Origin: the human T2T-CHM13v2.0 reference genome, Homo sapiens
Length of the DNA stretch: 64,000 bases
Assembly (NCBI RefSeq): GCF_009914755.1
Contig: NC_060926.1
Direction: 5' to 3' (one strand)
In this document: one piece after another, positions 6,461 to 20,446 of the stretch
Numbering within the stretch: the stretch's first letter is position 1
How the letters are laid out: every line of letters starts with the position of its first letter
Notes under the pieces: model-generated
What the model saw: the letters and a program-made list of their open reading frames with translations, nothing else
Databases searched by the model: none
Told to the model about the DNA's origin: nothing
Translations under genes and position numbers: made by a program

Positions 6461-7499
6461 CCTCCCTTGAGTTAGCCTTGTGGGGGTTGCCCTGGTACAG
6501 GTTACCATTTACTTCTGATAAGACTCTAATTTACTTTTGGCAAAAACTGACTAACCACATATAAATAAGTGATTTTATTTACCTTTTCCCCCATTTGGTG
6601 CATACAATTTACCATGTAGTCCAAGCCTTTAGGCCTCACAAGACTTCAGCTCAGGACCAGGTAGGCTGCCAGTTCGTCCCCCATATCCAAACAGCCCCGG
6701 GAGAGAGAAGGGAGAGAATTTTTAAAATGACAATCCTGGGATGTCCTACGGTTTAGAGCACTGGGAGGTGTACTTGTAGTCATTAAAAAGCAACTGCAGT
6801 GACCCAGCATAGTGCTAGTAATCTGGCTCCCAGGCCGTTGAGCGCAGCAGGGAGCAAGACTTCAGGATCACACTGCATGTGGCTTTAATGTGCACAGACT
6901 GACTTCATGCTGGGAGCACAGCATCCCTAATCTTTCCTTGCTGTTTTTAGACTTTTAATTCAGCTTAGGTCTAGATGTTGGATTGACATGATATTGTCCT
7001 TTCTGTTTGATTTATCAATTCGTCGTTTGATAGTATACTGTCAAGAAATCAGTGACAGCTTTGTATTGCCAGTGAAAAGTCCTGATAGCTTAAAGCATTC
7101 AATAGTACAGGTTGGTACATGACCTTTGAGTTTTCAAACCTTGGATATAATCCATGAGAAAACAAAAAATAAAGACAAGATTGATAAATAGGATTTATAA
7201 GGGTTGACAGAATTAGGAGGATGAAGGGCAAGATAAAGATTAACCATACATTCCCTAAATATACAGGTATTCAGGTGAAAAACAACAAAAAAAAAGTTAT
7301 TGAGGGATGAGATCCCTTGCTTTTGATTAGAATGGTACCTTCCAGCCAATTCAAATAAAATCGCTCAAGCTAGTTTATCTGTCTGTGAAGCACATTTCTC
7401 TGAATAGTTTTAATTTTCCTCTTAGTCTTCATAACAAAATCATAAATGTAGCTTTCTGTAGGACTGTGTTCTAAACCTTTGGGAAGGCCACTCATTCAC

Positions 7500-18118: not shown

Positions 18119-19032
18119 CCCCAGGTAGTTTATGTAGGAACTATTTAATGTTAAATGAATCATTAGGTAAAGTGCGTATACTACTTCATGAGATGGCTTT
18201 AATTAAGTCACTTATTTTCTTAAGACTTTATCTTGATAATTTTTTTCTTGGTTCATAATGAAATGGAAAAGATTTGTGCCTTGACTATCCTGAAACTTTT
18301 ATGTTACTCTCACAAGTTTACTGAAGCTGCAAAGAATAAATAAGGCTATTTAAACTATGGTGACTATAACCCATTTATATTGAGAAATAAGCCTTTCAAG
18401 AGGTTAAAAATAGCATAAAGGCAGGTACATAAGATGCTTGTCAGCTAAAAAGACCCACCCAATTTAAAGTAACATTAATATATTAAAACCCCATTTCTTA
18501 TCTGAGCATATTTATAGCAGAACAAAACTCCAGAGATAAATTCATCTGCCTTCAGACAGCCGTACACCTGAACTCCAGGTGGATGTTTGTGTTTGGGTCT
18601 GTTTCTAGGTGGAATGATCTCATGTTCTCCCTTACCACAGAATTGTGCAACACTGATACACACCTGTGTTTTGATCTTTAAAATCTGTCGTGGTAACATC
18701 TCAAGTAATTTTAAATAGCTTCGTGGATGATCCAGATTGCACGTCTGCCAGAAACATCCTTGGGCACAGTTTTGGAGCTGACTTGGATTCCTGCAATACT
18801 AAACTCGAGTCATATTGAAAATATACTAGGCCTTGGGTTCTGTTCCTTTCACTGAGACTTTTATCTCGATGCATTTTTTTGTATAAGTAATCCCCTTGGC
18901 CAGCGTCAGTGCATGAGATCTTAATTATCATTAAAAGAGAGTGAGATGAAGTATTTAGAAACTAAAGCAAGTTACCTGGATCACCACATTTCTGTCATTG
19001 CACAAGTATTTGAAGAATTATTTTTTTTGCTC

Positions 19033-19160
19033 TTTTTTTTTTGAATTGCAGAAATTTATGAAAATTAGAGACATTGTTTAATCTTCTTGTGCCATGAGAC
19101 TCCATCAGGCCATCTACAAAGACCACTGGGAGGCTAAGGATCACTTGAGCCCAGGAATCG
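19033..19160 (-). pseudogene. 5'-truncated processed retrocopy of the GAS5 lncRNA 3' end
   Basis: Minus strand reads cctgggctcaagtgatccttagcctcccagtggtctttgtagatggcctgatggagtctcatggcacaagaagattaaacaatgtctctaattttcataaatttctgcaattc + A10, ~90% identical by eye to the GAS5 last exon as I remember it; TSD tgctctttt at 19028-19036 and 19161-19169. Confidence 0.88.
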
Positions 19161-19489
19161 TGCTCTTTTAAATATATCTTTTTCATAAAAGTTATTTTAA
19201 AATGTGGCAGTTTAAAATGCCTGCTGAAAGAGTTGATCTTACCTGTAAGATCACTGATTTCTTTCTTTAAAAGCTAGTGGATACCCAACTTGTAAAGCAC
19301 CAAAGTAGGACTTAGTGTGGGAATGTTAAGGAATGAAGCAGAGTTGAAGACATGGCTTATTTCAAAACACAGTGACTCATGAATGCAAAGTAATGCATTT
19401 CTGTTATGTTTGCAGATTCATGGTTAATTCCGACCTTAGCTTAACCACCATATTTTCAGGGCAAACTGTTGATGTGGTAAATTTTTTTC

Positions 19490-19680
19490 TAATGTATTTA
19501 TTTTATTCTAGTTATTATGGGTAATACCAAAAATATGTAAAAAGTAGAATAGTGTAATGAACCTTCGATACCCATCATCCCACTTCTATCTGTGGTTAGC
19601 CCTGTACCCCACTCACTTCACAGTCCCCATGTCCTTCACTGGATTGTTTCAAAGCAAATTCACAAGTATGTGGTATGAAT
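19490..19680 (-). mobile_element. old L1 (L1MC-type) 3' fragment
   Basis: aaaaagtagaatagtgtaatgaaccttcgatacccatcatccc...ggattgtttcaaagcaaattc. Confidence 0.6.

Positions 19681-20075: not shown

Positions 20076-20446
<371 letters not shown>

What the first reader, a model, noticed from the sequence alone, without database searches (positions are those of the whole stretch)
19028..19169. Hidden retrocopy of the GAS5 lncRNA 3' end with poly(A) and TSD
Seen: ~118-nt body on the minus strand, a 10-nt A tail, a 9-bp TSD (tgctctttt) and an L1-endonuclease-type TTTT/AA site at the right flank, so it is an L1-mediated insertion of a polyadenylated RNA. Recognised from memory: the body matches the GAS5 terminal exon (...gggctcaagtgatcctcagcctcccagtggtctttgtagactgcctgatggagtctcatggcacaagaagatt...) at about 90% and ends at its poly(A) site, with AATAAA reading CATAAA here. 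Because its 5' part is Alu-derived, repeat maskers would probably call it a small Alu scrap. Inference: the functional module of a lncRNA was dispersed by retroposition, possibly as one of a family of copies; it could also cross-react with GAS5 probes or siRNAs.
Basis: partly seen in the sequence, partly recalled or inferred. Interest (0 to 1): 0.8.

Follow-up and report, generated by a model that had tools for sequence, protein, structure and literature searches.

The report
Truncated GAS5 lncRNA retrocopy in BABAM2 intron
This is an old, 5'-truncated, LINE-1-made copy of the last ~114 bases of the GAS5 non-coding RNA, one of at least 14 such copies in the human genome; it is almost certainly inert, an ordinary processed pseudogene.

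Summary
On the minus strand, window 19169-19028 reads: TSD AAAAGAGCA, six junction bases of unclear origin, about 113 bases of GAS5, an A run, then the same TSD. The body is 92.1% identical (105 of 114 columns) to the end of a terminal exon at chr1:173.22 Mb. I identified that locus as GAS5 from its ten intronic snoRNAs. The match stops at the parent's poly(A) site. AATAAA reads CATAAA here, and the target site fits TTTT/AA. Both flanks are unique in the genome.

A genome search found the parent plus 13 further GAS5 retrocopies (73-97% identity). Some are full-length and spliced, and all end at the same poly(A) site. This copy is the shortest. It groups with the three youngest copies and the parent (support 98/97). 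Its own branch is 0.047 changes per site, roughly 25-45 Myr by recalled calibration.

About 29 bases at its 5' end derive from the antisense Alu that forms the start of GAS5 exon 12.

The 49-nt riborepressor region is present with 3 substitutions, and two of them weaken the predicted hairpin. Nothing here indicates function. A published exon-12 TaqMan assay matches the copy (reverse primer and probe exactly).

Verdict: a correct call of an ordinary thing, of low interest.

The parts
19161..19169 (-). 5' copy of the target-site duplication, AAAAGAGCA on the minus strand. The two plus-strand bases just right of it (19170-19171, AA) complete a TTTT/AA L1-endonuclease-type site.
19155..19160 (-). 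Six bases at the 5' junction of uncertain origin: either diverged GAS5 sequence or untemplated bases. They match the parent at 3 of 6 positions.
   Evidence: read by eye from the alignment
19126..19154 (-). Alu-derived part of the GAS5 terminal exon (transcript positions about 535-563). It is an antisense Alu right arm in GAS5 sense.
   Evidence: In one search, 25 of 48 matches were confined to query 468-565. One search shows the window repeat 20091-20419 is 7SL/Alu-like. One search gives the alignment.
19043..19125 (-). Non-Alu part of the GAS5 terminal exon, running to the poly(A) site. In this genome it is matched only by GAS5 and its retrocopies.
19093..19141 (-). Counterpart of the 49-nt GAS5 riborepressor (GRE-mimic) region, 46 of 49 bases identical to the parent. 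Two of the three substitutions lie in the 3' arm of the apical stem.
   Evidence: review passage giving the 49-mer; coordinates; folds: parent MFE -13.4, this copy -11.4 kcal/mol, z -0.43
19055..19060 (-). Poly(A) signal hexamer, CATAAA here and AATAAA in the parent and in all 13 other copies at its first base.
   Evidence: transcript position 630
19037..19042 (-). A tail outside the TSD. The A run as a whole is 19033-19042, and 19042 may be the last templated base.
19028..19036 (-). 3' copy of the target-site duplication, AAAAGAGCA.

Best explanation
A polyadenylated GAS5 transcript was reverse-transcribed by the LINE-1 machinery, by target-primed reverse transcription at a TTTT/AA nick in what is now a BABAM2 intron. 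Reverse transcription stopped or switched early, so only the last ~113 bases of the terminal exon were copied. The insert carries a short A tail and lies between 9-bp target-site duplications. It brought no promoter and has since drifted: 6-7 changes of its own in 114 columns. It is a dead-on-arrival processed pseudogene fragment, one of at least 14 GAS5 retrocopies made at different times in primate evolution.

Shown: identity of the parent, the end at the poly(A) site, the tail, the TSD, the target motif, unique flanks, and the sibling copies.

Inferred: the L1 mechanism (from these hallmarks), the age, and the lack of function.
For: Parent.
- One search gave 15 places: self, chr1:173222019-173222132 at 92%, and 13 others.
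- One search shows ten box C/D snoRNA hits in a row on the minus strand of that chr1 locus, the GAS5 set. The match lies just 3' of SNORD81.
- Searches recover 12 exons with GT-AG borders and a 648-nt spliced proxy.
- One search places this copy at transcript 535-648, 92.1% identical.

Retroposition.
- The parent's genomic sequence continues with unrelated bases after the transcript end, whereas this copy and the others continue with A-rich sequence. All 14 end within 3 nt of the same transcript position.
- TSD.
- Flanks 18600-19027 and 19170-19600 each match only themselves in the genome.

Siblings are true retrocopies.
- L004 covers transcript 1-648 without introns at 96.9%. L003, L002, L010, L015 and L012 span exon junctions.
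- By eye, 5 of 14 have clear TSDs (L001, L002, L004, L010, L013), 2 are probable (L007, L011), and in 7 I saw none.

Placement.
- The clade of this copy, L002, L003, L004 and the parent has support 98/97. This copy's terminal branch is 0.047.
- GAS5 RNA is a documented L1 substrate: somatic GAS5 retrocopies in tumours (passages of PMC3663115, and PMC13122676).
Against: This copy covers a single exon, so loss of introns, the usual proof of an RNA intermediate, cannot be shown for it directly. That rests on the poly(A)-site end, the tail and the TSD.

The six bases at the 5' junction fit the parent poorly (3 of 6).

The A tail is short (6-10).

Lack of function is an inference only. No expression, conservation or binding data could be consulted. 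The copy lies in sense orientation inside an intron of the lncRNA LOC100505736 (the hub's gene table), so it is probably transcribed passively.
Confidence: 0.92

Rival explanations
1. The copy is functional. It would be transcribed within the LOC100505736 primary transcript or on its own, and would keep enough of the GAS5 riborepressor hairpin to bind steroid receptors, to soak up GAS5-directed small RNAs, or to provide a weak CATAAA polyadenylation site.
For: 46 of 49 bases of the riborepressor region are kept and the same overall hairpin is still the predicted minimum-energy fold. The copy is in sense orientation in a lncRNA intron (hub table). A review states that the exon-12 core can act alone (PMC6789762, passages).
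Against: - Two substitutions hit the apical stem: one pair becomes a wobble and one a G-G mismatch.
- The MFE falls from -13.4 to -11.4 kcal/mol, the centroid is -6.9, and 62 of 200 shuffles fold as well.
- The copy's own branch (0.047) is as long as the path from the same fork to the parent (0.023 + 0.015), so there is no sign of constraint.
- The poly(A) hexamer is mutated.
- It brought no promoter.
- The older copies and L002 carry A at transcript position 578, so the parent itself probably had a mismatch in this stem when the copy was made.
Confidence: 0.03
2. It is only an Alu scrap next to chance-similar unique sequence.
For: The 5' ~29 bases are Alu-like.
Against: The remaining ~85 bases are not Alu. 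They match GAS5 and its retrocopies only, with E 7.6e-38 for the parent. The match ends at a poly(A) site with a tail and a TSD.
Confidence: 0.005
3. It is a DNA-level duplicate of the GAS5 locus or of another retrocopy (for example L002, its closest relative at 93-94%), not an independent retroposition.
For: It is slightly closer to L002 (106 of 114 columns) than to the parent (105 of 114). The two also share T at transcript position 553.
Against: - Homology stops exactly at the TSDs.
- The flanks are unique in the genome.
- L002 has its own, different TSD and different flanks.
- The one-column difference in identity is within noise.
Confidence: 0.02

Closest known systems
L1-mediated processed pseudogenes (retrocopies) of polyadenylated RNAs
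   Same: Ends at the parent's poly(A) site. Has an A tail, a 9-bp TSD and a TTTT/AA target. It is 5'-truncated, lies on another chromosome than the parent, and has no promoter.
   Different: The parent is a lncRNA rather than an mRNA, and the copy is unusually short (~113 bases, one exon). Such copies fall outside pseudogene catalogues built from protein-coding parents; that is my own knowledge, not tested here.
The other 13 GAS5 retrocopies in this genome (L002-L004, L006-L015; for example chr6:90.93 Mb and chr15:24.39 Mb, both full length)
   Same: Same parent, same 3' end, A-rich tails, and TSDs where visible.
   Different: This is the shortest. Others carry 2-12 exons, and three carry part of intron 11. 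Identities to the parent range from 73 to 97%, against 92% here.
Somatic GAS5 retrocopy insertions in tumours (Ewing et al. 2013, PMC3663115; ESCC cohort 2026, PMC13122676; passages read)
   Same: The same RNA is mobilised by L1.
   Different: Those are recent somatic events. This copy is fixed in the reference assembly and old.
Type-3 snoRNA retroposons (snoRTs; Weber 2006, PMC1687206, abstract and passages read)
   Same: The sibling copies L009 and L013 carry the 3' half of SNORD81, the rest of intron 11, exon 12 and a tail. They resemble 5'-truncated type-3 snoRTs.
   Different: The copy under study has no snoRNA or intron sequence. Weber's main text does not mention GAS5 (0 occurrences).

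Membership tests
L1-mediated processed pseudogene / retrocopy | Homology to the mature transcript of a gene elsewhere in the genome | tested here: met
   92.1% over 114 columns to the GAS5 terminal exon on chr1
L1-mediated processed pseudogene / retrocopy | Absence of the parent's introns | not testable with these tools
   The copy covers one exon only. Six sibling copies do span exon junctions without introns.
L1-mediated processed pseudogene / retrocopy | 3' end at the parent's poly(A) site, followed by an A tail absent from the parent locus | tested here: met
L1-mediated processed pseudogene / retrocopy | Target-site duplication flanking the insert exactly | tested here: met
   A 9-bp exact repeat at both borders, the only direct repeat of 8 nt or more in 18980-19220. 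The 9-mer is expected 1.92 times per 64 kb on both strands.
L1-mediated processed pseudogene / retrocopy | L1 endonuclease target consensus TTTT/AA at the tail-side nick | tested here: met
   Plus strand 19166-19171 reads TTTT/AA. The consensus itself is recalled knowledge.
L1-mediated processed pseudogene / retrocopy | Empty site in species that diverged before the insertion | not testable with these tools
   No primate genomes are held.
Alu element (fragment) | Homology to Alu / 7SL over the element | tested here: not met
   Only about 29 of about 113 bases are Alu-like. In one search the Alu-only hits end at query 555-565. One search found no SRP hit in 18800-19400, whereas a true Alu in the window gives two.
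Functional GAS5 riborepressor (GRE mimic) | The 49-nt sequence with an intact stem and the critical G549 | tested here: inconclusive
   46 of 49 bases identical, stem weakened. G549 could not be placed on my coordinates because Hudson 2014 and Kino 2010 are not held.
Functional GAS5 riborepressor (GRE mimic) | Expression as RNA and receptor binding | not testable with these tools
   No expression or binding data were available.

The most novel reading that the evidence does not exclude
The fragment is carried in sense orientation in LOC100505736 precursor RNA. It might keep enough of the riborepressor hairpin, and does keep exact primer and probe sites, to act as a minor steroid-receptor or small-RNA decoy, or at least to contaminate GAS5 exon-12 measurements.

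More broadly, the 14 dated copies form a fossil series. The pair that closes the GRE-mimic stem (transcript position 578) was A, a mismatch, in L002 and all 10 older copies. It is C in the two youngest copies and T today. That would put completion of the stem late in ape evolution.
Probability: 0.05. Interest if true: 0.4.

Novelty: new member of a known kind. Interest (0 to 1): 0.15.

Why it matters
Little for biology: it is one more dead retrocopy.

There are two practical points.

1. A widely printed GAS5 exon-12 assay fits this locus. Its reverse-primer 22-mer occurs in 30 papers of the library. The reverse primer matches 22 of 22 and the probe 16 of 16. The forward primer matches 19 of 21, with its 3'-most 18 bases exact (the primer and probe matches were read by eye). 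Genomic DNA or intronic RNA from this and sibling copies can therefore add signal. The gain is small, because the assay lies in one exon and already amplifies the GAS5 gene itself from DNA.

2. The retrocopy family gives a dated record of how the GAS5 3' end changed, including the riborepressor region. That record could be compared with primate orthologues.

Tried and rejected
- Rfam scan of 18800-19400 at E up to 10 gave only two chance-level hits (GlsR5 at E 2.4, enod40 at E 5). No hit in this stretch pointed to GAS5.
- Rfam at gathering scores on 14 retrocopy loci gave 0 hits, so no intact snoRNA was carried along.
- Hudson 2014 (by DOI) and Kino 2010 (by PMC id) are not held. The numbered critical residues of the GRE mimic could therefore not be mapped.
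- Literature. A search for the six phrases 'GAS5 pseudogene(s)', 'GAS5 retrocopy/retrocopies', 'GAS5 processed pseudogene' and 'pseudogenes of GAS5' found 1 paper, on somatic events.
  - Six phrases for lncRNA retrocopies or pseudogenes found 2 papers, seen in the listing only.
  - 'GAS5' with 'retrotransposed', 'lncRNA' and 'processed pseudogenes' found 3 papers. The passages read in two of them were irrelevant.
  - 'snoRT' with 'GAS5' found 3 reviews, seen in the listing only.
  - 'GAS5' with 'retrocopies' found 4 papers.
  - None describes fixed germline GAS5 retrocopies. The library lacks most subscription journals and I read no supplements.
- A DNA-level duplicate of L002 was considered and rejected (unique flanks, different TSDs).
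- Dating by presence or absence in primates was not possible.

Full report
**What is in the sequence.** Read on the minus strand, window 19169-19028 runs in this order:
- AAAAGAGCA (19169-19161);
- six bases, cgattc (19160-19155);
- a stretch that aligns to another locus (19154-19042/3);
- an A run (19042-19033);
- AAAAGAGCA again (19036-19028), its first four A being part of the run.

The repeat finder lists this 9-mer pair as the only direct repeat of 8 nt or more in 18980-19220. The 9-mer occurs 3 times on both strands of the window against 1.92 expected from shuffles, so a second copy exactly at the other border is not a chance event. On the plus strand the right border reads TTTT/AA (19166-19171). 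That is the L1 endonuclease consensus as I recall it, on the strand that would prime on a poly(A) tail.

**Identity of the parent.** The window's own genome is held. A search with window:19028-19169:- gave 15 places: the query itself, chr1:173222019-173222132(-) at 92% (E 7.6e-38), and 13 others at 78-94%.

I fetched 10 kb around the chr1 place (L016). Rfam at gathering scores found ten box C/D snoRNAs in a row on its minus strand: SNORD81, 47, a snR60/Z15-family hit, 79, 78, 44, 77, a SNORD24-family hit, 75 and 74. That ordered set is what I know as the GAS5 host gene, and a paper passage also states that GAS5 hosts 10 C/D snoRNAs (PMC2394760). The match lies just 3' of SNORD81.

Independently, the 22 bases at window 19087-19108 occur verbatim in 30 papers. 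In the one I opened they are the reverse primer of a 'GAS5 exon 12' TaqMan assay (PMC3844204, passage).

**Exon structure and extent.** BLAST of the 15 loci against the sense strand of L016 showed that several loci carry a collinear series of short blocks. With GT-AG borders these define 12 exons and a 648-nt spliced proxy. The terminal exon is transcript positions 474-648.

Against this proxy the copy under study covers 535-648 at 92.1%, with 8 mismatches and 1 gap in 114 (105 of 114 columns). The parent's genomic sequence continues with unrelated bases after position 648. This copy and the others continue with A-rich sequence. The hexamer upstream is AATAAA in the parent and CATAAA here (19060-19055).

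The flanks 18600-19027 and 19170-19600 match nothing else in the genome. Homology to GAS5 is therefore confined to the stretch between the TSDs.

**The family.** All 13 other places are GAS5 retrocopies.

| Locus | Place | Transcript span | Identity / note |
|---|---|---|---|
| L004 | chr6:90.93 Mb | 1-648 | 96.9% |
| L003 | chr15:24.39 Mb | 3-648 | 81 gap positions |
| L002 | chr1:90.89 Mb | 327-648 | 94.1% |
| L010 | – | 12-645 | 78% |
| L015 | – | 69-645 | 73-80%, interrupted |
| L012 | – | 424-648 | 81% |
| L006, L007, L008, L009, L011, L013, L014 | – | start between 460 and 483 | 74-88% |

- All 14 copies, including this one, end within 3 nt of the same transcript end.
- By my pattern, 12 of 14 have an A run directly after it. 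In L011 and L012 A-rich sequence follows a few bases later.
- Reading by eye, 5 of 14 have clear TSDs (L001, L002, L004, L010, L013), 2 are probable (L007, L011), and in 7 I saw none. I made no systematic TSD search.
- A second genome search, with the full-length copy L004:965-1614, scored only 40 of 774 first-look candidates and gave 48 matches. These were 14 rows for 13 of the 14 retrocopies (L014 was not scored), 9 rows for exons of the parent, and 25 rows confined to query 468-565. It found no further GAS5 copies, but the counts are lower bounds.

**The Alu part.** Those 25 matches show that transcript positions about 470-563 are a high-copy repeat. A ~330-bp repeat in the window (20091-20419) gives two Metazoa_SRP hits on its minus strand (E 6.6e-13 and 2.9e-08), as an Alu dimer should. 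Its antisense strand aligns with the end of GAS5 intron 11 and the first ~100 bases of exon 12, T run included.

GAS5 exon 12 therefore starts inside an antisense Alu right arm. In the copy studied here, about 29 bases (19154 to about 19126) come from it.

**Relative age.** Nine columns differ between this copy and the present parent.
- At 616 the parent is the odd one out: A in this copy and in 12 of the 13 other copies.
- At 639 this copy has the C of 7 of the 10 older copies.
- At 578 both have changed. L002 and all 10 older copies have A, L003 and L004 have C, the parent has T, and this copy has G.
- Changes at 577, 610 (deletion), 623, 630 and 646, and perhaps 553 (shared with L002), are the copy's own.

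This copy, L002, L003, L004 and the parent lack two small insertions seen in most older copies. In a maximum-likelihood tree of the terminal-exon region they form a clade with support 98/97. The terminal branches are 0.047 for this copy, 0.029 for L002, 0.006 each for L003 and L004, and 0.015 for the parent.

Divergence from the parent is 7.9%, with a Wilson interval of about 4-14% by my own arithmetic. Set against genome-wide divergences that I recall (human-orangutan about 3%, human-macaque 6-7%, human-marmoset 11-12%), this suggests roughly 25-45 Myr. The error is wide because only 114 columns are compared.

**Function.** A review gives the 49-nt riborepressor (GRE mimic) of exon 12 (PMC6789762, passages). 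Its counterpart here is 19141-19093 and is 46 of 49 identical.
- Folded alone, the parent gives MFE -13.4 and ensemble -14.32 kcal/mol, which matches the review's -14.3.
- This copy gives -11.4 and -12.43 kcal/mol, centroid -6.9, z -0.43, and 62 of 200 shuffles fold as well.
- Two of its three substitutions lie in the 3' arm of the apical stem. One pair becomes a wobble and one becomes G-G.
- I could not place the critical G549 because the primary papers are not held.
- The copy's own branch is as long as the parent's path from the same fork (0.047 against 0.038), so nothing suggests constraint.
- It lies antisense in a BABAM2 intron and in sense in an intron of LOC100505736 (hub table), so passive transcription is likely. 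I had no expression data.

I conclude that it is inert, with about 0.03 left for a functional reading.

**Cross-reaction.** I compared the assay printed in PMC3844204 with the minus strand by eye.
- The reverse primer fits 22 of 22 (19087-19108).
- The probe fits 16 of 16 (19133-19118).
- The forward primer fits 19 of 21, with its 3'-most 18 bases exact (19154-19137).

The assay lies within one exon and already detects the GAS5 gene in DNA.

**Known or new.** Retroposition of GAS5 RNA is in print as a somatic event in tumours (PMC3663115; PMC13122676). My phrase searches found no description of the fixed germline copies. The library lacks most subscription journals and I read no supplements. 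The RefSeq table supplied with the finding has no feature here.

The kind of element is textbook, so this is a new member of a known kind and of low interest.

Noticed in passing
L009:1508-1798, L013:1507-1787, L014:1367-1600 (chr4:99.94 Mb, chr6:77.38 Mb, chr22:39.67 Mb): Three sibling copies continue upstream of exon 12 into intron 11 (GAS5 sense from 7199, 7212 and 7257). L009 and L013 start inside SNORD81 (7161-7237), and L013 has a TSD. They look like 5'-truncated type-3 snoRNA retroposons in Weber's sense, or copies of intron-retaining GAS5 RNA. No snoRNA reaches Rfam gathering score in them.
   Followed up: partly
Transcript position 578 (window 19111; alignment, table): The base that closes pair 18-31 of the 49-nt riborepressor hairpin is A in L002 and in all 10 older copies (a G-A mismatch). 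It is C in the two youngest copies (G-C) and T in the present gene (G-U). The retrocopies seem to record a late completion of this stem. That fits the review's statement that the GRE mimic is ape-specific (PMC6789762).
   Followed up: partly
All 14 retrocopy loci, 49-nt region: The review says orangutan, gibbon and Old World monkeys have a 186-nt insertion in this region, and that the uninterrupted form arose about 10 Myr ago. Yet all 14 retrocopies have the region uninterrupted, including ones 12-26% diverged from the parent (the four oldest carry an extra TTG). Mature GAS5 RNA therefore had the contiguous arrangement long before African apes. This needs primate genomes to resolve.
   Followed up: no
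Transcript position 616 (parent L016): The present GAS5 gene has G where this copy and 12 of the 13 other retrocopies have A, including the two copies at about 97% identity (the remaining one has T). This looks like a recent substitution in the parent gene of this assembly, or a polymorphism.
   Followed up: no
L003 (chr15:24386340-24386906) and L004 (chr6:90930514-90931163): Two young, nearly full-length spliced GAS5 retrocopies, each with a terminal branch of 0.006, group together (support 81/76). L003 lacks about 81 transcript positions, mostly in exon 7, which may reflect an alternative splice form.
   Followed up: no
window 20091-20419: An Alu on the minus strand gives two Metazoa_SRP hits below gathering score. 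It also gives sub-threshold hits to the mir-1268 and mir-3135 families, which I take to be matches to the Alu sequence rather than miRNA genes.
   Followed up: no
L016 2693-2720 (GAS5 intron 11 / exon 12 border): The acceptor site of the GAS5 terminal exon lies in the T run and following bases of an antisense Alu right arm. This is the usual pattern of Alu exonisation. The older retrocopies keep Alu bases (for example CTCTG) that the present exon has lost.
   Followed up: partly
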